Under the pieces are notes generated by a model. The model was not told the DNA's origin. It did not search any database and worked only from the letters and a program-made list of their open reading frames with translations. Shown piece by piece: positions 1,599 to 10,976 of a stretch of DNA of 30,265 nucleotides. Positions within the stretch are counted from its first letter, which is position 1. Each line of letters starts with the position of its first letter. Made by a program: the position numbers and the translations under genes. The stretch is from the IMG/VR virus record IMGVR_UViG_3300037631_000496, positions 1 through 30,265 of that record, one strand, 5' to 3'. The stretch is from a virus. Taxonomy: Duplodnaviria; Caudoviricetes.

Positions 1599-1838
1599 TT
1601 ACTTGCTGATTATTTTGTCCATTTTTTCGTCTAGTTTATCTAAACGATCTATAACTCTGTCTATGCTGATTGTTAGCTCAACTTTAGTTACATAATCTTT
1701 TGCAACTTCTTCGCGAGTCTTATTAAGCAGTATATCAACTCTTTTCATTTCTGTCGCGTTAGTTCTGATGCCATGTATGATTGGTGCAAATACTAATGTC
1801 ATTACAATATTCCAAAACATCATGCCATCAAATTCCAT
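1599..1838 (-). CDS. Small membrane-anchored coiled-coil protein (lysis-region hypothetical)
   Basis: N-terminal hydrophobic segment (FWNIVMTLVFAPII) followed by a heptad-rich C-terminus. The ATG at 1838 overlaps the endolysin stop (TGATG). Confidence 0.7.
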   Translation of the reverse strand: MEFDGMMFWNIVMTLVFAPIIHGIRTNATEMKRVDILLNKTREEVAKDYVTKVELTISIDRVIDRLDKLDEKMDKIISK

Positions 1839-2209
1839 CAGTAGCTCCAAATATGTGGTCTAGGTCTACCTTGTGAATCTTTAGATATATCAAGATGTAT
1901 AAATCTTGCGCCACCCTTTTGGTTTACACCAATACCAGTAAAGCCAAAGTCTCTGGCCTTAGATATAATTTCTAATGCTTGTTTGCCTCTAACACCTATA
2001 TCTGCTGCTAAACCTAAAGCATGTGTACCAGGTTTAGATTTCTTAATTTCTACAGGATGATCTGCACATCTATAACCAGATGTGATTTTGAATGGAAATC
2101 CACACTCTGTTCTTAGTTCTTGTAGCTTGTCTATAAGCTCATGCTCTATTTGGTTTTCACCACAATGTTTACAAGCAAATTCTTCTAATACAAAGTTCTT
2201 CCAACTCAT
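1838..2209 (-). CDS. Endolysin, peptidase M15A family (Zn peptidase)
   Basis: EEFACKHCG, ITSGYRC, H-x6-D (THALGLAADI) and FIHLD motifs; adjacent to the holin. Confidence 0.9.
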   Translation of the reverse strand: MSWKNFVLEEFACKHCGENQIEHELIDKLQELRTECGFPFKITSGYRCADHPVEIKKSKPGTHALGLAADIGVRGKQALEIISKARDFGFTGIGVNQKGGARFIHLDISKDSQGRPRPHIWSY

Positions 2210-2586
2210 TTTGATACTCCTTTAGTCTTTTCAAATGTTCTTAATCCACCAAGTCCTAGCATACCCATTAATACAGTCATTAGCGAACCCATATCAAAAC
2301 TTGGTAAGTCAAATGATAGTCCAGCTGCTGATAGTCCGAATACAATAATAGGCTGTAATAAAAAGTGGTACAGCATAGCAATGCCGCAAGTCCACCCCAC
2401 AAAAGGCCGCCAGCCTGCAACGAATAAGGATCTATGTCCAGCTTCAATCTTGTTGATCTCAATCTGTGCCATATTCGCTTTATGTAATTCTGTTTTAAGT
2501 TCATGGTTAAGCTTTGCTTGTAAGTCTTTATCAGGCACTAATTTGCCAACTATGTCGCTGACTGGACCTATTAGTTTATCAATCAT
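2206..2586 (-). CDS. Holin (3TM GTA-type holin family)
   Basis: FVAGWRPFVGW motif, hydrophobic helices and a GMLGLGGLRTFEK C-terminus; ATGA overlap with the endolysin. Confidence 0.85.
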   Translation of the reverse strand: MIDKLIGPVSDIVGKLVPDKDLQAKLNHELKTELHKANMAQIEINKIEAGHRSLFVAGWRPFVGWTCGIAMLYHFLLQPIIVFGLSAAGLSFDLPSFDMGSLMTVLMGMLGLGGLRTFEKTKGVSK

Positions 2587-2917
2587 CTTTTTTATGTAGT
2601 TTTAAAAAATACTCAGCATCTACTAATGCTAATGGTTTTGTTCTGTTTCTTTTAATTATAACCAAAGGTTCGTAATCTTTACAGTTTTCTTGCGACTGTT
2701 CGTATGCTTTCCATACATTCACAGCTTCTTGATTTTTGCACTCTATTGAATATGGGAATTGTTTGCGAGATTGCACGCCCATGATGATATCTTCACCATT
2801 AGAACCCATTGGTCTTGATTCTAAATCTTCTGGATCAAATCCTAGTAGTTCAACAAGTTTGTCTACTACCCATTGTTGCAAAGCTCTCCCTTTGGCTTTT
2901 GCAGATGATGGTTTCAC
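2579..2917 (-). CDS. Holliday-junction-resolvase-like PD-(D/E)XK nuclease
   Basis: SAKAKGR...GED...SIECKNQE pattern typical of phage Hjc-like resolvases; GTG start. Confidence 0.75.
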   Translation of the reverse strand: MKPSSAKAKGRALQQWVVDKLVELLGFDPEDLESRPMGSNGEDIIMGVQSRKQFPYSIECKNQEAVNVWKAYEQSQENCKDYEPLVIIKRNRTKPLALVDAEYFLKLHKKDD

Positions 2918-3002: not shown

Positions 3003-4751
3003 CTATGTTGTATAAATAATCAAAGGTTTTTCTTTGCCTTTAACTTTTATTGGTTTTAATAATTTTAACTCAATTTTAGATTTATTTGCAGTAGATTCAC
3101 CGATCAATATATCTACACCCACTTCTTTAGTTGCTGACTCTAATCTCGCAGCTGTGTTTACACAGTCACCAATAGCAGAATAATCAAACCTAGTATCACT
3201 ACCCATATTACCAATAACAGCAGTTCCTGTATTTACACCTATACCTATAGCTATAGGTTCTGATAATTCTTGTTGTAATTGTTGTATAGATGTTTTTATA
3301 TCTTGCGCACATGCTATAGCTCTATCTTCATGGTTATCTAAATCTAATGGTGCTGAGAATATTGCCATAGCTGCATCACCAATAAACTTATCTACCATAC
3401 CGCCGTGTGCTTGTATGCAACGCACTTGTGCAGTTAATACCTTATTCATAATTTCAGTAACTTGTTCTGGCTCTAACTTTTCACTTAAATTTGTAAAACC
3501 TCTAACATCTGTAAATAAAAATGTTGCTTCTTTTTTCTCACCACCAAGTTTTAACAAGTCAGGATTGTTTTGTAATTGTTTAACTTGTCTCGGATCAAGG
3601 TAATGTTCAAACTGTTTTTTTATCTGTTGGCGTAATTTATATTGTTTTTTGTAGCTTAAATACAAAGCAATAGTAGAAACTAGTATTTGAGAGATGAAAG
3701 TCCATGAAAAATCCAACAAAATACCTTTCTGAACGCTAAAAACCCCTGAGAAGCCTGTGGTGAAGAGCAAAATTACAGCGAGACTTATGCCCTTAGCTAT
3801 ACTGAGATAATTAATTACAAGCCACGTCAGCGACACAAAAATTCCTAAAATTAAAATTTCGGCTAATAAATGCCAATCAGGAATCCTTGGTGAATTTTCT
3901 ATCAAGATTGACTCAGATAATGCTGCTTGAATTTTGTGTGGTTCTAATAATCCAGTTGGAGTTGCGATTTGTGGCATGATGCCTGGAGCAGTTACGCCAA
4001 CAAATACAAACTTACCAGCAACATCCATTTCTTGTAAATTAGTTTGTGGTGTATCTACCCAACTGATCCACTTACGACCTAAACTGTCGGTAGCAACTGG
4101 TGGTAATCCTTTGACTCTAATTTCTTCTATACCAAGGTCATTGGTTTTTATAACGTATGTTTTTGCATCTACCAATGCTTTTAATACTTCTGTGCCAAAC
4201 GCAGGTACATATCCATCTGGTGTTCTTAACAATAATGGTATTCTTCTTACTAAGTTGTCTACATCAGTTGGTGCAGTTGCAATACCTTCCTGTGCATAAG
4301 TTGTTAATATCTTTGTATTTTGTATGACACCATTTGTAGTCATACCACCTACATCATCACCAAGTATGACAGTTCCTGTTGTTGGCGGATAAACACCATT
4401 AGGATTTTCAAACATTGCTAATATAGAAGTGCCATACTTTAATGATTCTGCAAAGTATTTGTCACCACCTAAACGATCTGGTTGTGGGAATCCAATAACA
4501 TAACCTACACCTATAGCACCTTTAGCAATTATCTCTGTATGTATTTCACCTAGTCTTTTTCTAGGTAACGGCCAACCACCTTCGTTAGCTATATCTTCTT
4601 CTGTAATATTTAGAATAGTAAAGTACCCAGAAGGCTGTTGCTTTGGTACTAAATAATCAAAGACTTTTAATTTTAATATTTCTGTAGGCGTTGACTGATA
4701 TAACAAAGGCAATGCTAGTATTATAAGTATGATGAATAGTAGTCGTTTCAT
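3003..4751 (-). CDS. CHASE2-domain membrane class III adenylate/guanylate cyclase
   Basis: N-terminal TM, CHASE2 motifs (GGWPLPR, DVDNLVRRIPL) and three TM helices. The catalytic domain carries FTDVRGFT, VDKFIGDA, GIGVNTG and GDCVNTAARLES. Confidence 0.95.
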   Translation of the reverse strand: MKRLLFIILIILALPLLYQSTPTEILKLKVFDYLVPKQQPSGYFTILNITEEDIANEGGWPLPRKRLGEIHTEIIAKGAIGVGYVIGFPQPDRLGGDKYFAESLKYGTSILAMFENPNGVYPPTTGTVILGDDVGGMTTNGVIQNTKILTTYAQEGIATAPTDVDNLVRRIPLLLRTPDGYVPAFGTEVLKALVDAKTYVIKTNDLGIEEIRVKGLPPVATDSLGRKWISWVDTPQTNLQEMDVAGKFVFVGVTAPGIMPQIATPTGLLEPHKIQAALSESILIENSPRIPDWHLLAEILILGIFVSLTWLVINYLSIAKGISLAVILLFTTGFSGVFSVQKGILLDFSWTFISQILVSTIALYLSYKKQYKLRQQIKKQFEHYLDPRQVKQLQNNPDLLKLGGEKKEATFLFTDVRGFTNLSEKLEPEQVTEIMNKVLTAQVRCIQAHGGMVDKFIGDAAMAIFSAPLDLDNHEDRAIACAQDIKTSIQQLQQELSEPIAIGIGVNTGTAVIGNMGSDTRFDYSAIGDCVNTAARLESATKEVGVDILIGESTANKSKIELKLLKPIKVKGKEKPLIIYTT

Positions 4752-5950
4752 TAATCACTCTGTGTGATCTTAATTATACTACCAGTACCGCCATTTACTT
4801 TAACCACCTTTGATGCACCATCTTGTATAAAGATAACTGTATAACTAGAAGATGAATCTATGTCTACCCTTGCAGTATCATTAACACTACGCATAAGTGT
4901 TAAAACTTCACCAGTCACATACGATGTGATTTGTGTGTTTAAGTCTTGACCTAAGCTTGTACCAACTAGATTAATTGTTGTTGCATCCTGTGCTAACTGA
5001 TCCTCTTCTTGTATTTCTTGTAATGCGTCTATGACATCAAGTAAATCTTCTAAGAAGTTCACATCAAGATAGTTTATATCTAGCTCTGTAAACTCTAGTT
5101 CTTGTTCTGCATCTAATAAATCTTCTTCTAAATAATCTATATCAAGATCATCAAAGTCTAATATATTTTTCTTTTTTGTTTGTATAGTTTCTTCTATAGC
5201 TTGCTCTTGTTTAGGTGGGTTTACGATAAGCATGTTATCTATTAGCTCTAGCGTTAAGTCTAGTATGACTGGCGTACTTGGTGACTTTTCATATACATCT
5301 ACAGTTGTAGCTTCATAGGGTTTATTAAGCGTAACTGTACCCATAGCTGTAGTTACTAGTATTTCACCACTAGATAAACCATTGATATCAGGTAATAGTA
5401 TTAATAAACTGCGACCAGTTTCATCTACAGTTACAGTGAAATCAGTACCTCTTATAGCTATATTCGCTGTAGGTGTTTTAAGATCTATATTATTTTTATC
5501 TATCTTATTTAGGCTACCTGTAATAAATCTAGCTGTGCCAAGACCAAAGGTAATAGCCATTTTAGATTTGCTGGGGTTAGGATCAAAGATATATTCGTCA
5601 ATAGTAAGTTGCGAATGTTCAGTCAGTTTTACTTTAGAATCATCTAAGAATGTAATAGCCATACGACCATTAGATGTAATGGCTTCATCATTTTGTTGTA
5701 TATCAAACGACTCTGTAGCTGTGTATGGCTTATCTCTTACAACCTGTGCTGAACCAGTCAGCTCAGATATATTGCCTACATCAACAGCTGGTTGTTGTTC
5801 CGCCGTCGTTTTGAACGACGCAAACAGTACCGCTAGACCCAGTAGAATTGATCTGTAGCCAATCAGCAGCAAGCGTTGATGATTGTATGATGTTAAATGT
5901 TCTACTGTTTCCTGTTTGGTCGAGATAGAAGTATCCTCCTGCATATCCAC
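4751..5950 (-). CDS. FecR-domain exported/periplasmic protein (true start may be TTG at 5872)
   Basis: Hydrophobic signal/anchor, FecR motifs (ITFLDDSKVKLTEHSQL; LKTPTANIAIRGTDF), an acidic middle region and a beta-rich C-terminus. TAATG coupling to the cyclase. Confidence 0.85.
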   Translation of the reverse strand: MDMQEDTSISTKQETVEHLTSYNHQRLLLIGYRSILLGLAVLFASFKTTAEQQPAVDVGNISELTGSAQVVRDKPYTATESFDIQQNDEAITSNGRMAITFLDDSKVKLTEHSQLTIDEYIFDPNPSKSKMAITFGLGTARFITGSLNKIDKNNIDLKTPTANIAIRGTDFTVTVDETGRSLLILLPDINGLSSGEILVTTAMGTVTLNKPYEATTVDVYEKSPSTPVILDLTLELIDNMLIVNPPKQEQAIEETIQTKKKNILDFDDLDIDYLEEDLLDAEQELEFTELDINYLDVNFLEDLLDVIDALQEIQEEDQLAQDATTINLVGTSLGQDLNTQITSYVTGEVLTLMRSVNDTARVDIDSSSSYTVIFIQDGASKVVKVNGGTGSIIKITQSD

Positions 5951-6491
5951 TTCCTGTAAAGTTTACTGTGTTGCTATCCCCATCTACATCAACATAGCTA
6001 GTAGCACCATCATAATTAATATCAAAATCAAAGGTATTGCTATCACCATTGATTATCCAATCTAAGTCTAAGTTTTCACTTAATGCGCTTGTACCAGTAT
6101 CTAACGTAAATGTGTTAGAACTACCTGTTACATCAACATTGTAGTTTGATCCGTCAATCCCATAAGTATCTGTTGGATCTGCTTGTATAGTGAATGTATT
6201 ACTATCGCCATCAAACTCAAAAAATCCTGTTATATTATTACCATAAATATCACCAAGAAATTTATTGCTGTTACCTATCTGGTTAATATCTAGTGTTAAG
6301 TTAAGGCCATCTAAATCAAGCGGCGTAAGTGTACCTGCTATAGAGTTGAGACCACCAATAATGTTAGATGAGCCTAACTGCTCTAGGTCTATGTTTGCAG
6401 TTGCGCCTGCTTGCTCTACATATATTTCGTTGTCAGCCGCGAATAGCGGTAAGACAATCGTCATCGCAATCAATTGTTTTAAATTCTTCAT
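5781..6491 (-). CDS. Secreted curlin-like beta-solenoid repeat protein
   Basis: Signal peptide ending near LPLFA|A, then ~11-aa strands ending in Q/D-x-G followed by xSNTF (EQLGSSN, NQIGNSN, FDGDSNTF, VTGSSNTF, INGDSNTF, VDGDSNTV, DQTGNS); located downstream of csgG. Confidence 0.75.
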   Translation of the reverse strand: MKNLKQLIAMTIVLPLFAADNEIYVEQAGATANIDLEQLGSSNIIGGLNSIAGTLTPLDLDGLNLTLDINQIGNSNKFLGDIYGNNITGFFEFDGDSNTFTIQADPTDTYGIDGSNYNVDVTGSSNTFTLDTGTSALSENLDLDWIINGDSNTFDFDINYDGATSYVDVDGDSNTVNFTGSGYAGGYFYLDQTGNSRTFNIIQSSTLAADWLQINSTGSSGTVCVVQNDGGTTTSC

Positions 6492-7302
6492 AATTCCAAT
6501 ATCCTCTATTTGTTCCTTCTTTTATAGTTTGTAAAACAGCAGTTTCTATCGCTGTTTGTAGTGCTATATTGATTGACTCGTTCCTGACTAAACCGCTCTC
6601 TACTTCTACTAGTTCGGTTGAATCACTAATAAAACGAAAGATATCTTGATCTATAGATGCACTTAATATCGTTTTAGTTACTAATACTTCTAGTAATACT
6701 TTACCCGTACTCACAGATACAGTACGTAAGGAGATGGTAACTGTATCTTGTTTGTACTGCCTAGACATTCCTATTCCAAGGTATCTAGCTCCAGCACCTC
6801 CACTCTTTACGTTACTTTCGTATGATATCACGCCACCTTGCATTATTAAACCCGCAAACATAAGTGGTTGTAATTTGGTATCTTTTTTAAACTCTTGCCT
6901 GGTGCTTCTTATGATCTGTCTTTCTTTAGTTACATGATCTAAACCAACTCGCTCTACTACTTCAAAAAAACCATTATGATTTATACCTGCATGTTTTAAG
7001 GCTCTAATTAAGTATGCGTCTGGTGCTTGTGTTACTGCTGATGAGAAAGTTGCGTAAGTGCTGTTGCTTCTTCTTTGACCAGTTTGATCTGTAAATGATC
7101 CTGCGTAGATAGCTACTACTGGTTTGGCTTTATTGTTTGCTTTTATGTTAGCAAGCTCAGGTACAAGTAATGAACCTATTTCTGGCTTTTCTATTTTTTG
7201 TAATGGTGGTAGGTTGTTTTCTAACGGATCTATTATTATTGCGCAACTAGAAAGTAAAGTTGCCAATAGGCAAAGATATAGTCGTTGTATCACCATTTGC
7301 AT
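6433..7302 (-). CDS. csgG: Curli secretion channel CsgG-family outer-membrane lipoprotein
   Basis: Lipobox LLSSC. KPVVAIY..F.DQTGQ, FSSAVTQ, FEVVERVGL...KERQIIR, GGAGARYLGIG and LRTVSVSTGKVL all match CsgG. Confidence 0.93.
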   Translation of the reverse strand: MQMVIQRLYLCLLATLLSSCAIIIDPLENNLPPLQKIEKPEIGSLLVPELANIKANNKAKPVVAIYAGSFTDQTGQRRSNSTYATFSSAVTQAPDAYLIRALKHAGINHNGFFEVVERVGLDHVTKERQIIRSTRQEFKKDTKLQPLMFAGLIMQGGVISYESNVKSGGAGARYLGIGMSRQYKQDTVTISLRTVSVSTGKVLLEVLVTKTILSASIDQDIFRFISDSTELVEVESGLVRNESINIALQTAIETAVLQTIKEGTNRGYWNYEEFKTIDCDDDCLTAIRG

Positions 7303-7684
7303 CTGTTATTGTTAAAGTTATTATTCCGTCTATAACATTATACTCTATAGTATTGCCTTCTAACTCTAAAATACCACTAGTGCTTGCAGTTTCACCAAAC
7401 AGGTTCTCTACTAATTGTCTTGATAGCTGTGCATAGATTCTTGATTCTAAGTTTCTTATAAACCTTGCTAGTGTAGTATTTTCTTTGTCTCTTTCTATTT
7501 CATCTTGCAACGCTTTTATCTCTGCTTTTAACGTCATCTTTCTAGTGTGCATTTGGTTTTCTATAGTTAGATAATGTGCAGATGTGCCAACACCAGAGAA
7601 CGATGGTGACTTAAATTTATGTACCATTTCATCTGCTGATACAGATAAACATAATACTAATAAACTAATCTTTCCTTTTGTCAT
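7247..7684 (-). CDS. csgF: Curli assembly protein CsgF family
   Basis: Signal peptide, then ADEMVHKFKSPSFSG (compare CsgF F.F.NP.F.G), LESRIYAQLSRQL and a beta-rich C-terminus; directly upstream of csgG. Confidence 0.85.
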   Translation of the reverse strand: MTKGKISLLVLCLSVSADEMVHKFKSPSFSGVGTSAHYLTIENQMHTRKMTLKAEIKALQDEIERDKENTTLARFIRNLESRIYAQLSRQLVENLFGETASTSGILELEGNTIEYNVIDGIITLTITDANGDTTTISLPIGNFTF

Positions 7685-8015
7685 TTCTTTTTGCTTTAGC
7701 TATTTTGTTAGTGTCTATTAACTGTGGAACTCCTAACATAGTTTTAATCATAGTGTCTTGTCTGATAATTTCATTATCTAGTGATCTAACTCTATCTATC
7801 AATGCTACTAAAATACCATGTTGTGTGTCTAGTTTTGTGCCTAGTCTTTCTTCCATGGCTGTGAGTGATGTATTAACTTTTTCATCTACAGTATCTAATT
7901 TAGTTTCCATACCATCTATGATTCTGTTAATTAGTTTCCAAACAAACATACCTAGACCTATGGCCGCAGCTATAGGAAAACCTAATTCGGTTATCAAGGT
8001 AACGATGTCGTTCAT
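7665..8015 (-). CDS. Single-TM coiled-coil membrane protein (YvrJ/holin-like GFPI motif)
   Basis: ELGFPIAAAIGLGMFVW TM segment, coiled coil and basic tail; overlaps the csgF start. Confidence 0.7.
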   Translation of the reverse strand: MNDIVTLITELGFPIAAAIGLGMFVWKLINRIIDGMETKLDTVDEKVNTSLTAMEERLGTKLDTQHGILVALIDRVRSLDNEIIRQDTMIKTMLGVPQLIDTNKIAKAKRNDKRKD

Positions 8016-8095
8016 TTAGATTGTGTTAGTTTATCTTCTGTTTTTTGGAATGATCGTTCTAAAAATTTATCTATAAGGTAACTTATAAACTTCAC
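8012..8095 (-). CDS. 27-aa micro-protein MKFISYLIDKFLERSFQKTEDKLTQSK
   Basis: The GTG start overlaps the upstream stop (GTGA) and its stop overlaps the downstream ATG (ATGA). Confidence 0.55.
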   Translation of the reverse strand: MKFISYLIDKFLERSFQKTEDKLTQSK

Positions 8096-8241
8096 TTTCT
8101 TTTCTTAGCTGTTTTCTTTGCTTTCTTAAAAGCCTTAGCTGTAGGTGCGCCTTTAGTTCCAGGCTTTCTCATCTTCTCATTAGAACCAGCTTTAATTCTT
8201 TTTCTTTTAGCGTGTATATTTGCGTATAGTCCTCTTGGCAT
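8092..8241 (-). CDS. 49-aa highly basic micro-protein (MPRGLYANIHAKRKRIKAGS...)
   Basis: AGGAG RBS, clean ORF, Lys/Arg-rich; resembles small basic proteins common in marine phages. Confidence 0.8.
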   Translation of the reverse strand: MPRGLYANIHAKRKRIKAGSNEKMRKPGTKGAPTAKAFKKAKKTAKKRK

Positions 8242-8250
8242 ATTATCTCC

Positions 8251-8508
8251 TTATTTTCTTCTTGATTTAGCTCCAGAACATTTCCATCTTTTTCTTGATA
8301 GGTTGTTAGGAGTGTTGGGGTTGTTTTGTTTTTTCTTAGATAATCTTTTCTTTATACCTAGACTTCTAGCGCAATATGAATCGCCTTTAGATGTTCCTGG
8401 CTTAACCCTTGGTCCACCGCCTTTAGCTTTGCCTGCTTGTCCGTAACTTACTTTTTTACCAGACTTGGTAATCTTTACTTTTGCTTTGCCTTTTCTTGGT
8501 GCTACCAT
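8251..8508 (-). CDS. Basic hypothetical phage protein (VSYGQAG...SYCARS...W.C)
   Basis: 85-aa Lys/Gly-rich ORF, TAATG-coupled to the upstream ORF. Confidence 0.8.
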   Translation of the reverse strand: MVAPRKGKAKVKITKSGKKVSYGQAGKAKGGGPRVKPGTSKGDSYCARSLGIKKRLSKKKQNNPNTPNNLSRKRWKCSGAKSRRK

Positions 8509-8669
8509 TATTTCTTCTTCCTAGGTCTGCCTCTTTTTTTAATGATTGGTTTAGGTTCTAGTAAGTTATCTAACCAACCTGCAACTTTGTTATAGGCATA
8601 TTTAATCCAGCCTACAATCTTTAGGGTGATCTTTTTAATCCATTCCCATGCTATTTTTAAGTATTTCAT
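8508..8669 (-). CDS. 53-aa amphipathic-helix plus AT-hook micro-protein
   Basis: MKYLKIAWEWIKKITLKIVGWIKYAYNKVAGWLDNLLEPKPIIKKRGRPRKKK; TAATG overlaps at both ends. Confidence 0.75.
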   Translation of the reverse strand: MKYLKIAWEWIKKITLKIVGWIKYAYNKVAGWLDNLLEPKPIIKKRGRPRKKK

Positions 8670-8845
8670 TAATGTACCATCCTTTCTTCGTAATAAATTA
8701 TTTCAGAATCTTGTGTTACTTGTCCACCTGACATTACAGACATAATCTGCATTGCGTGATTTCTGTCCTTCGCTCTAATTTCTTTACCAACATAAACCAT
8801 GTCATCCACAATTACTTCAATATCAAATATTTTGTGGTGGGACAT
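8669..8845 (-). CDS. Hypothetical protein (58 aa; ORF track extends start to 8881)
   Basis: MSHHKIFDIEVIVDD...; overlaps the portal 3' end and is coupled to the next gene. Confidence 0.6.
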   Translation of the reverse strand: MSHHKIFDIEVIVDDMVYVGKEIRAKDRNHAMQIMSVMSGGQVTQDSEIIYYEERMVH

Positions 8846-10976
8846 TGTTTGTAAATAATCCTTGAGCTTGAGCTTTTGCATTTTGTCTTATTCCTTCTCT
8901 GTCTCTTTCCATTACTGCGTTGATTTCTGCGATATTAATTTGTGCGCCGTACTTAGCTTGTAGCTCTAGCGCTTTGACTCTAAGTTGTGCCTCTTCAATA
9001 TCTCTTTGTCTGTCGTCATCCATGATGATTTTCATTCTATCGGTTTCAGCATCGATCATTGCCTTTTGTGCGCTGACCTGTGCCTTCATTGCTTCAGCTT
9101 GTGCAAGCATTTCAGCTGCATCTGGCTTTTGTTGCTCAGGCGCTTGCGGAGGCATCGGCGGAACTTCTGTATTGATAAAGCTTTGCGCGTCTTGGAAACC
9201 AGCCATCTCTATCATTCTAGTCAAAGTATTAGCGTATTGTTGCATTGACACTAGAGGATTCTGTGGTCCTAGCGTTGCCATGATTTGTTCTTGTTTTTGC
9301 GATAATTGTGCTAACACTTGGAACTTTTCTTCGTCAGATGACTTAGATATAGCTACATTTACCACTAAATCCTTGTCATTATCCCAATATCTTGGGTCTA
9401 CAGGGATAAATTTACCATTCAATCTAAACACATCTTGCGCGTTTTGGTGCTTGATTACCAAGCTATTTACTGTTTTAAACATGGTTTTTAAGCCACCTTC
9501 AGCAAAATGTCTGCAAATAAGTTCTACTCTACCTTGTGCGCCACTCATAGTAGCTGATACAGCTGTTGAGGTGCTGGATTGTAGAGCGTCTGCGTTTAAG
9601 CCAGCTGATGCTTTGGATACGCCAGTTCTGTTTTCTTTAGCTTCGTCCAAATATCCTAGTACTGGGAACGCTTCTTTACCCACAAACGGCACAGCAAATG
9701 GTTGTACCATTCCTGGCGCACGCATCCTAATAGGTTGCCCTATGTCGGTGTTTAGTACATCGTCTATATTTACTTGTCCTTCAACAATACCCATGCGTGG
9801 GAAGATTGAATGACCGAGTGAATCTAAAGTGTCACGCATAATTTGTGACTTAGCTGATTGTATTGGTTTAAGATAATCAGCAGGACATGAACCTATAGCT
9901 GTGTGCGGTTCTGGATCAGGGCAGAACATACATATTGGTAGCTCATCCCATTGCTCTACGTTTAATATTTCTAAGCCGTTGCCTGCGGTGCAAACTCTGA
10001 TACGTTCATCAATACCATCGCCATCAAAGTCATAAAACAAGTAATGTTCTATGTATAACACATCTTTACCGCCAGCATCGTTTCTATCTGGGTAGACCAT
10101 ATTGTCAAATGGGTTTCTAGCTTCTTGTTCTTCGTAGCTTTCAGGATCTAACGCACTACCGCCGTAGCCTGCGTATTGTTCTATTTCTTCTTGATCGTAA
10201 CCCATTGCCACTAAATCAGATACAGATTTAATCATGCGGTGCGCAACGTAAGATGCAGATTCTATATCGCGTGCGTGTCTTGATATTAAAACTTCTTCAG
10301 GCGGTATAGATTCTATGCAAACTTGGTCTTTTGGTTTTAATCTTCTAATGGTTAGGTCGTAACTAGCAGGCACTTCTTGGGTGACTTCTTGTTGGCTGAT
10401 AGGATCAAAAGTTATTATCGTCTCGTTGGTTACTGACTCTTTTACTATCTCAACATTTTTATCTAGTATTAACGCTTGGTAGGATTGCGGATCTAAGTTA
10501 GTGTATTCGTGCGTGGTAGCAGTTACTGAATCATCCCAAAACACTTTGACAAAACCAGTCTTTCTAACAAGTGCATCTTTGAATACATCATACAGCACTT
10601 GGAAGCCTGGGTTCTTTTGCTGAATAATATAATTAATATAATCAGTTTGCTGTTCGGCTAGTTGGATATCTTCTGGTCCTTTGGGTACAAACTCAACAAT
10701 CTTCTTAGTACCAAAGAAAGTACGCATGATAGACGGCAACATAAATAAAATGCTTTCTCTAACATCTGTAGATACAAATTCTGACTGTAGTGAGCTAGTG
10801 CCTTCTGGCTCGTTACCAAGATAGTATTCTGTGGATTCAGCTCTTTCCGCGCCGACTTGGTGTATAAAATCTTTAGCGTCATCCATCTCGGATTTAATCA
10901 CGCCGACTAAATCAATAGACTTACTTTCTTCTTCTGAGATAGCCTTGATTTCTTCTTCTTTGTATTGCTTTGCCAT
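8823..10976 (-). CDS. Portal protein (P22-like)
   Basis: 717 aa directly after terL. It has EYYLG, FKDALVRKTGFVKVFWD and ENRTGVS motifs and a long Q/A-rich C-terminal helical barrel. Confidence 0.9.
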   Translation of the reverse strand: MAKQYKEEEIKAISEEESKSIDLVGVIKSEMDDAKDFIHQVGAERAESTEYYLGNEPEGTSSLQSEFVSTDVRESILFMLPSIMRTFFGTKKIVEFVPKGPEDIQLAEQQTDYINYIIQQKNPGFQVLYDVFKDALVRKTGFVKVFWDDSVTATTHEYTNLDPQSYQALILDKNVEIVKESVTNETIITFDPISQQEVTQEVPASYDLTIRRLKPKDQVCIESIPPEEVLISRHARDIESASYVAHRMIKSVSDLVAMGYDQEEIEQYAGYGGSALDPESYEEQEARNPFDNMVYPDRNDAGGKDVLYIEHYLFYDFDGDGIDERIRVCTAGNGLEILNVEQWDELPICMFCPDPEPHTAIGSCPADYLKPIQSAKSQIMRDTLDSLGHSIFPRMGIVEGQVNIDDVLNTDIGQPIRMRAPGMVQPFAVPFVGKEAFPVLGYLDEAKENRTGVSKASAGLNADALQSSTSTAVSATMSGAQGRVELICRHFAEGGLKTMFKTVNSLVIKHQNAQDVFRLNGKFIPVDPRYWDNDKDLVVNVAISKSSDEEKFQVLAQLSQKQEQIMATLGPQNPLVSMQQYANTLTRMIEMAGFQDAQSFINTEVPPMPPQAPEQQKPDAAEMLAQAEAMKAQVSAQKAMIDAETDRMKIIMDDDRQRDIEEAQLRVKALELQAKYGAQINIAEINAVMERDREGIRQNAKAQAQGLFTNNVPPQNI

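What the first reader, a model, noticed from the sequence alone, without database searches (positions are those of the whole stretch)
3003..8015. Phage-encoded trans-envelope signalling operon: CsgF-CsgG pore, curlin-like protein, FecR and CHASE2 adenylate cyclase
Seen: six co-oriented genes, each overlapping the next (TM protein, csgF, csgG, curlin-like, FecR, CHASE2-cyclase), inserted between the portal and lysis genes. Established: CsgG/CsgF form the outer-membrane curli channel, FecR domains relay signals across the periplasm, and CHASE2 cyclases are inner-membrane sensors. From memory, csgF/csgG pairs are reported in SAR11/OM43 myophages; I do not know of a characterised five-part version with a cyclase in a small podovirus. 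Inference: the parts span surface, outer membrane, periplasm, inner membrane and cytoplasm. The infected cell may therefore build a surface sensor that outputs a cyclic nucleotide (superinfection/contact sensing, lysis timing or cAMP reprogramming) rather than biofilm curli. csgE, csgC and csgD are not present.
Basis: partly seen in the sequence, partly recalled or inferred. Interest (0 to 1): 0.93.

Follow-up and report, generated by a model that had tools for sequence, protein, structure and literature searches.

The report
Phage curli pore with tethered sensor
A small marine phage carries an intact, already published six-gene 'viral curli' cassette (outer-membrane pore, fibre-like subunit, FecR-fold protein, membrane adenylate cyclase), and comparison with bacteria suggests that the FecR protein is likely a tether held in the pore that would report surface contact to the cAMP-making enzyme, an untested but directly testable idea.

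Summary
The six genes are real, overlapping and intact, and their order is kept: the cyclase follows FecR in 126 of 127 viral contigs with room. The cassette is not new. Wittmers et al. 2022 described it in small podoviruses and myoviruses, and this scan found it before on other DNA (35 notes). Added here: (1) the carrier is a different lineage, about 36 kb without PolA; (2) the published 'histidine kinase' is a 79-121 aa membrane protein, not a kinase; (3) the operon without that gene sits among cellular genes in four Caulobacterales MAGs; (4) the FecR protein is a signal-peptide protein with a FecR fold, an acidic linker and a C-terminal curlin-type strand (110 of 125; background 4 of 811), and many of its closest bacterial matches are N-terminal modules of large adhesins; (5) bacterial CHASE2 relatives have a FecR-fold gene beside them in 11 of the top 20 loci. 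Best reading: a pore-tethered surface sensor feeding cAMP (0.5). No binding was tested, co-evolution tests were inconclusive, and host and cAMP target are unknown.

The parts
7665..8015 (-). Small membrane protein (N-terminal hydrophobic helix plus probable coiled coil); the 'histidine kinase' position of the published module, but not a kinase
   Evidence: No Pfam hit; phrog_18771 and weak holin phrog_4898 E 7e-4; homologous to HTVC008M gp11/12 and Melnitz 97/98; 253 relatives are 79-121 aa and 87 have no His; absent from the cellular operons
7247..7684 (-). CsgF
   Evidence: PF10614 E 2.6e-18
6433..7302 (-). CsgG outer-membrane pore lipoprotein
   Evidence: PF03783 E 1.4e-45; lipobox-like motif in 195 of 199 relatives; 45% to HTVC008M and Melnitz
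5781..6491 (-). Curlin-like subunit with degenerate repeats and probable signal peptide
   Evidence: AlphaFold2 all-beta model, pLDDT 88.9; top VIA hit Pontibacter CsgA 8C50 Z 17.3, rmsd 8.8 over 194, tied with SufBD-type solenoids Z 16.4; 30% to HTVC008M 'curlin minor subunit CsgB'
4751..5872 (-). FecR-fold protein: probable signal peptide, FecR-fold domain, acidic low-confidence linker, small C-terminal beta domain ending in a curlin-type strand (start codon uncertain)
   Evidence: PF04773; model domains 1-182, 185-275, 279-342 of the mature chain; PupR Z 15.2, 5IX9 Z 7.2; G-T motif 125 of 125; terminal motif 110 of 125
3003..4751 (-). CHASE2 class III adenylate cyclase, catalytic set intact
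   Evidence: PF05226 + PF00211; D415, K455, D459, D523, N532, R536 kept in 50, 49, 50, 45, 49, 50 of 50; best PDB hits adenylate cyclases
1838..2917 (-). Context: RusA-like nuclease, 3-TM holin, M15 endolysin directly downstream
8092..10976 (-). Context: portal gene and four short ORFs (three of them Lys/Arg-rich) upstream

Best explanation
The cassette encodes a CsgG/CsgF pore, a curlin-like subunit, a FecR-fold protein and an intact CHASE2 adenylate cyclase, and it likely works as a surface structure wired to a cAMP sensor, with the FecR protein predicted to be the tether between them. Steps: (1, inferred from homology) late in infection CsgG and CsgF form a pore in the host outer membrane and export the curlin, which would build a short fibre or surface stub. 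(2, inferred) The FecR protein reaches the periplasm by its signal peptide; its C-terminal domain, which ends in a curlin-type strand, would pass through or dock at the pore and stack on the curlin/CsgF, the roughly 85-residue acidic linker would span the membrane, and the folded FecR domain would stay behind as a stopper, like the retention domain of type I adhesins. (3, inferred from gene pairing) The stopper would contact the CHASE2 domain, so that assembly of, binding to, or pull on the fibre changes cAMP output; self-cleavage at the invariant Gly-Thr may be part of this. (4, speculative) The phage would use cAMP to match lysis timing or host physiology to the presence of neighbouring cells or particles. 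Shown here: genes, order, conservation, catalytic residues, predicted folds, bacterial gene pairing. Not shown: any binding, export, cAMP output or target.
For: Order kept in 126 of 127 and 140 of 140 viral contigs with room, across unrelated backbones and in four cellular MAG contigs. Cyclase residues intact. FecR three-part model; FecR domain matches PupR (Z 15.2) and the adhesin pore plug 5IX9 (Z 7.2, rmsd 2.3 over 71; profile E 0.0026); 5IX9 is described as too large to pass the TolC pore (PMC5550230, passages). 39 of 68 listed bacterial matches to the FecR profile lie in frames over 1000 aa; a TolC-family gene is adjacent in 8 of the 20 loci fetched and RTX repeats occur in 4 of 5 such proteins scanned. 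Terminal hydrophobic-x-hydrophobic-x-Q strand in 110 of 125 FecR proteins against 4 of 811 other ORFs; it matches the curlin motif N-x-psi-x-psi-x-Q (PMC10192328, passages). FecR-fold gene within about 4 kb of the best bacterial CHASE2 matches in 11 of 20 (15 of 33 taken in rank order); in three of them it is the N-terminal module of a 1450-1640 aa adhesin-like protein directly upstream of the cyclase. Precedent: outer-membrane NsrA signals through CHASE2 cyclases (PMC13001267, PMC7529298, passages); CHASE2 cyclases cluster with FecR-domain genes in Campylobacterota (PMC9239204, passages).
Against: 0 of 20 fetched stretches around the closest FecR-fold matches (19 large proteins, 1 short) held a CHASE2, cyclase or csgG gene, so the fold often acts without a cyclase beside it. 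18 of 33 rank-ordered CHASE2 loci have no FecR gene nearby. In S. meliloti the FecR-domain gene smc02177 beside cyaD1 was not needed for signal perception (PMC5498481, passages). The published survey says FecR and the cyclase are not always present in viral curli regions (PMC9599517 section 9), and my FecR-anchored sets cannot see FecR-less modules. In myoviruses other genes lie between FecR and cyclase (0.3-4.8 kb). The 5IX9 match is partial and its Z is under the tool's caution level of 8. CsgG export with a retained folded N-terminal domain has no precedent that I found. No cAMP receptor was found among the window ORFs scanned.
Confidence: 0.5

Rival explanations
1. Curli fibres for aggregation ('sibling capture') or shielding against superinfection; FecR and cyclase only regulate expression or host lifestyle and are not physically coupled to the pore (the published reading).
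For: Pore, CsgF and a curlin-fold subunit are all present. Myovirus versions add a second, variable curlin, in HTVC008M with a PA14 domain. Proposed in PMC9599517 (passages).
Against: No clumping seen in Melnitz infections (PMC9004378 section 9). Does not explain the curlin-type terminal strand on FecR or the FecR-CHASE2 pairing in bacteria. The window curlin has no Curlin_rpt hit.
Confidence: 0.25
2. Envelope-state sensor for lysis timing: the FecR-CHASE2 pair reads pore opening or envelope stress from inside, and the pore or small membrane protein assists lysis; no outside signal is involved.
For: Among 103 podovirus-type loci the gene after the cyclase is the window-type holin in 34 and RusA in 12; one other is an Rz-like spanin followed by an endolysin, and endolysins lie close in two more. 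The small membrane protein has a weak holin match. A lysis role for phage CsgGF was proposed in PMC9004378.
Against: In HTVC008M and Melnitz the cassette lies after the ssDNA-binding gene with no annotated lysis gene in the 11 kb viewed; 38 of 103 loci are followed by an unknown-function family (phrog_1544). The operon also exists in cellular genomes without the small membrane gene. This phage has its own holin and endolysin.
Confidence: 0.15
3. Uptake channel or receptor decoy: the ungated pore imports nutrients (iron, vitamins) or the surface protein blocks competing phages, and FecR senses the cargo as in Fec signalling.
For: No CsgE gate; FecR fold matches PupR; suggested as an alternative in PMC9599517.
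Against: No TonB-dependent receptor, ECF sigma or cytoplasmic FecR N-domain in the cassette; strict retention of curlin and CsgF is unexplained.
Confidence: 0.1

Closest known systems
Viral T8SS/curli region of pelagiphages (Wittmers et al. 2022, PMC9599517; HTVC008M gp011-019; Melnitz 97-104)
   Same: Same genes in the same order: small membrane gene, csgF, csgG, csgA/B-like, fecR, adenylate cyclase; no csgC/D/E; 30-45% identity to the cultured myoviruses.
   Different: One small membrane gene and no second curlin; FecR abuts the cyclase; carrier is a 35-37 kb PolA-less podovirus, not the 59 kb PolA-bearing HTVC023P type; next to lysis genes.
Cellular csgF-csgG-curlin-fecR-CHASE2 cyclase operon in Caulobacteraceae and Henriciella MAGs (L086, L087, L090, L091; found here)
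   Same: Same order among cellular genes; FecR 37-39% identical.
   Different: No small membrane gene; two curlins or one long one; cyclases form their own clade (SH-aLRT 99, quick tree); rare: full-length match in 1 of 401 Caulobacterales (the query's own genome) and 2 of 262 in the Henriciella family.
Retention (pore-plug) module of type I-secreted adhesins, MpIBP RIN, PDB 5IX9 (PMC5550230)
   Same: Related fold at the N-terminus followed by a linker; many of the closest bacterial matches to the phage FecR are such N-terminal modules.
   Different: Phage protein is 370 aa, has a probable Sec signal peptide, and its operon has CsgG, not TolC/ABC/HlyD.
S. meliloti NsrA-CyaK/CyaD1/CyaD2-Clr cAMP relay
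   Same: Outer-membrane element signalling to inner-membrane CHASE2 cyclases (PMC13001267, PMC7529298, passages).
   Different: No beta-barrel receptor and no CRP-family gene in the cassette; input and output unknown.
FecA-FecR-FecI cell-surface signalling (FecR, PupR, FoxR)
   Same: Periplasmic fold (Z 15.2) and an invariant Gly-Thr like the self-cleavage site Gly181-Thr182 of FecR (PMC12036975, passages).
   Different: No cytoplasmic domain, no ECF sigma, no TonB-dependent receptor.

Membership tests
Viral T8SS/curli module (Wittmers 2022) | Order small gene-csgF-csgG-csgA/B-fecR, often followed by cyclase; no csgC/D/E | tested here: met
   against HTVC008M and Melnitz
HTVC023P-type pelagiphage | About 59 kb genome with PolA in the core | tested here: not met
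   Four same-backbone relatives are 35.3-37.3 kb, rated 100% complete, PF00476 found in 0 of 5 records searched; only partial 28-33% match to HTVC023P/027P structural protein
Phage of Pelagibacter | Infects SAR11 | tested here: inconclusive
   No close cultured relative; a related cassette is on a phage-like contig binned in a Pelagibacter MAG (L082), which does not show the host
Curli secretion system | CsgG lipoprotein pore and CsgF | tested here: met
Curli secretion system | Curlin subunit with beta-solenoid repeats | tested here: inconclusive
   Predicted solenoid with top VIA hit CsgA, tied with SufBD; no Foldseek hit; no PF07012 hit in the window protein, though its Caulobacteraceae homolog passes the cut-off
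Curli secretion system | Forms amyloid fibres on the cell surface | not testable with these tools
   needs expression and microscopy
Class III adenylate cyclase | Two metal-binding Asp, adenine-specifying Lys and Asp, catalytic Asn and Arg (roles recalled) | tested here: met
   PDB matches
Sensor histidine kinase (published label of the small gene) | Conserved phospho-His box and HATPase domain | tested here: not met
   79-121 aa, 87 of 253 without any His, no Pfam hit
Classical FecR anti-sigma factor | Cytoplasmic N-domain, membrane anchor, cognate ECF sigma | tested here: not met
   Only about 26 residues precede the FecR fold; no sigma factor among ORFs scanned
Classical FecR anti-sigma factor | Periplasmic fold with Gly-Thr self-cleavage motif | tested here: met
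   cleavage itself not testable here
Type I adhesin retention module | RIN-like N-terminal fold followed by a pore-spanning linker | tested here: inconclusive
   Partial fold match Z 7.2, profile E 0.0026; linker present; passage through a pore not testable
Type I adhesin retention module | Secreted by TolC/ABC/HlyD with RTX repeats | tested here: not met
   No such genes or repeats in the cassette

The most novel reading that the evidence does not exclude
Marine phages install in the infected cell a mechanosensor built on the curli pore: a FecR-fold stopper threaded through CsgG and capped on a curlin fibre pulls on a CHASE2 cyclase, so the virocell senses contact with neighbours or particles and sets lysis or host behaviour by cAMP. 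It would be the curli-pore counterpart of an undescribed bacterial module that pairs adhesin retention domains with CHASE2 cyclases.
Probability: 0.3. Interest if true: 0.85.

Novelty: new member of a known kind. Interest (0 to 1): 0.45.

Why it matters
The cassette is abundant (about 0.1% of assembled ocean viral proteins according to PMC9599517), moves between unrelated phage lineages, and has no tested function. The tether model gives specific experiments on an open question, corrects one published label (histidine kinase), and points to a cellular version and to FecR-fold/CHASE2 gene pairs in bacteria where genetics is easier. As a gene cluster it is not a discovery.

Tried and rejected
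Co-evolution by distance partial correlation: in 48 podovirus-type representatives FecR-N with CHASE2 gave 0.41 (5-95% 0.17-0.53) and FecR-C with CsgF 0.34, but in 17 myovirus-type representatives FecR-N with CHASE2 was -0.16; branch-rate covariation ranked FecR-N/CHASE2 13th of 36 (rho 0.28) and curlin/FecR-C was not significant. Inconclusive, not used as support. Foldseek on the curlin model gave no hit at E 0.001. The FecR C-domain got no clear structural match in a whole-protein search that barely tested it and no Atlas hit. The Atlas gave only unnamed viral clusters for the small membrane protein. Promoter scan: 24 sites against 29.5 expected, no evidence. RNA-labelled runs hold only low-depth contigs across cassette and flanks alike, so expression is not shown here. 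The careful tree did not finish; one search is a quick tree with long-branch warnings, so direction of transfer is not claimed. Pyrimidine or guanylate specificity rejected from K455/D523 (residue roles recalled). Pseudogene rejected: 125 of 126 cyclases full length or running off the contig end.
Full report
Observation. The six minus-strand ORFs are present at the stated place and overlap in series by 20, 56, 59, 92 and 1 nt. Pfam identifies CsgF, CsgG, FecR and CHASE2 plus class III cyclase; the curlin-like and the 116-aa protein have no hit over cut-off. The window is a whole virus record of 30,265 bases, 84% complete, with portal, terminase, P22-like ejection and stabilisation genes, and RusA-like, holin and endolysin genes straight after the cassette.

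Prior art. PMC9599517 (seen: abstract, passages, sections 6 and 9; figures and supplements not seen) describes this module in nine HTVC023P-type podoviruses and in myoviruses: 'histidine kinase', csgF, csgG, csgA/B, fecR, often a second curlin and an adenylate cyclase. [quoted passage not shown] PMC9004378 (passages and part 1 of 2 of section 9) saw no clumping with Melnitz and proposes a lysis role. HTVC008M and Melnitz carry the module. The scan's own notes hold it many times (35 findings by words, 33 windows by sequence).

Conservation. I fetched 79 viral loci with CsgG and 80 each with two FecR queries (these are the best 80 of 101, 305 and at least 462). After removing repeated contigs, 210 remain: the cyclase follows FecR within 5 kb in 126 of 127 with at least 3 kb of room (125 full length or running off the end), and csgF, csgG and curlin precede it in 140 of 140. 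Contigs without room were left out of these counts, many are near-identical, and FecR-anchored sets cannot show FecR-less modules, which the paper reports. Close cassettes sit in several unrelated backbones. Four relatives with this window's backbone are 35.3-37.3 kb, rated complete, and PolA was found in 0 of 5 records searched, whereas the HTVC023P type averages 58.8 kb and has PolA. So this is another carrier lineage; the host is undetermined.

Parts. The cyclase keeps D415, K455, D459, D523, N532 and R536 in 50, 49, 50, 45, 49 and 50 of 50 sequences; by recalled class III residue roles it is an active adenylate cyclase. The small gene is not a kinase: 253 relatives are 79-121 aa, 87 lack histidine. 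The curlin-like protein is predicted as an all-beta solenoid (pLDDT 88.9) whose top match is Pontibacter CsgA, Z 17.3, rmsd 8.8 over 194, tied with SufBD solenoids. The FecR protein starts with a short hydrophobic leader, then a confident FecR-fold domain, an acidic low-confidence linker (median 84.5 residues, median net charge -13) and a confident small beta domain. The fold matches PupR (Z 15.2) and, in part, the adhesin pore plug 5IX9 (Z 7.2; profile E 0.0026). Gly-Thr is invariant in 125 of 125, recalling the FecR self-cleavage site (PMC12036975, passages). The protein ends in hydrophobic-x-hydrophobic-x-Q in 110 of 125 (75 with a leading N or S) against 4 of 811 other ORFs, the curlin strand motif of PMC10192328 (passages).

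Bacteria. A scan of species genomes gave 30 loci. Six carry the cassette on short MAG contigs; the two whose flanks I read (L082, L085) look like binned phage DNA. Four (two Caulobacteraceae, two Henriciella, one on a 397 kb contig) carry curlin(s)-fecR-cyclase among cellular genes, three with csgF and csgG in view and one cut at the contig end, all without the small gene. Their cyclases form one clade apart from both viral groups in a quick tree. The operon is rare. In 401 Pseudomonadota genomes the FecR profile matched 46; 39 of 68 listed matches are in frames over 1000 aa. I fetched 20 loci, picking 19 long ones: TolC-family genes were adjacent in 8, RTX repeats were in 4 of 5 proteins scanned, and none of the 20 held CHASE2, cyclase or csgG (one has a CHASE2 gene 7 kb away). 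In the reverse test the CHASE2 profile matched 64 of 401; a FecR-fold gene lay within about 4 kb in 11 of the top 20 non-cassette loci and 15 of 33 taken in rank order (two contig-end hits skipped); 7 further hand-picked loci gave 6, four of them known beforehand and not counted as a test. My rough ceiling for chance is 4% per stretch, from at most 16 candidates in 5.9 Mb. In three top loci the FecR fold begins a 1450-1640 aa cadherin/Ig/RTX-type protein directly upstream of the cyclase. PMC9239204 (passages) notes a similar cluster in Campylobacterota; NsrA signals through CHASE2 cyclases (PMC13001267, PMC7529298, passages); against this, the FecR-domain gene smc02177 was not needed for signal perception (PMC5498481, passages).

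Mechanism. I commit to tether-and-report (0.5): curlin exported through CsgG/CsgF, FecR held across the pore with its folded end in the periplasm, CHASE2 cyclase reading its state. A functional FecR-CHASE2 pair I put at about 0.7, FecR passing through or docking at the pore at about 0.5, and the purpose (contact or density sensing that tunes lysis or host physiology) at about 0.3. All of these are inferred. Rivals: curli for aggregation with loosely coupled regulators (0.25), internal envelope sensing for lysis (0.15), uptake or decoy (0.1). Lysis adjacency holds for 46 of 103 podovirus-type loci by holin or RusA but not for the two cultured myoviruses.

Novelty. The cassette is known; this is a new member in a further phage lineage. 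I found no paper with the tether reading in the held library: FecR + CHASE2 + adhesin gave 0; at least three of CsgG, CsgF, FecR, CHASE2 gave 4 papers, none with CHASE2; the retention-domain search listed none mentioning FecR. Subscription papers are not covered, and an earlier scan note already suggested an adhesin-system origin. Interest 0.45: published locus, open function, now with specific tests.

Noticed in passing
L086:5037-11094, L087:5032-11052, L090:5041-11064, L091:3-4786: Cellular curlin-fecR-CHASE2 cyclase operon (with csgF-csgG in the three not cut by a contig end) in Caulobacteraceae and Henriciella MAGs, although the published work says FecR and cyclase are not in bacterial curli operons.
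   Followed up: yes
L315:5188-11909, L316:5057-12281, L317:5140-12113: Large adhesin-like proteins with an N-terminal FecR fold directly upstream of CHASE2 adenylate cyclases: a candidate bacterial adhesin-to-cAMP sensing module.
   Followed up: partly
L325, L349, L351 (also L314): Short stand-alone FecR-fold genes beside OmpA-like genes (Pfam-confirmed in L325 and L314), near CHASE2 sensors in L325, L349, L351; output domain varies (HD-type in L325).
   Followed up: partly
L112:7079-8404 and other myovirus loci L118-L191: The second curlin is highly variable (about 110-500 aa) with swapped N-terminal heads, a PA14 domain in HTVC008M: looks like a variable adhesive or sensing tip.
   Followed up: partly
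L298, L304, L307, L308: TPR-CHAT proteins of about 1280 aa directly upstream of giant FecR-fold proteins.
   Followed up: no
window 8092-8669 (-): Three short Lys/Arg-rich ORFs (49, 85, 53 aa) between portal and cassette; similar basic ORFs are inserted near the cassette in other phages (e.g. L159, L248).
   Followed up: no
L022:11427-11912 and 37 similar loci: A 160-aa protein of unknown function (phrog_1544) follows the cyclase where this window has its holin; possibly a lysis gene.
   Followed up: partly
L052:451-8944: Apparent tandem duplication of the cassette (or assembly artefact).
   Followed up: no
L157 (after 7068) and L175:7680-9254: One locus without a cyclase within 6 kb of FecR, and one with the cyclase in four pieces.
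   Followed up: no
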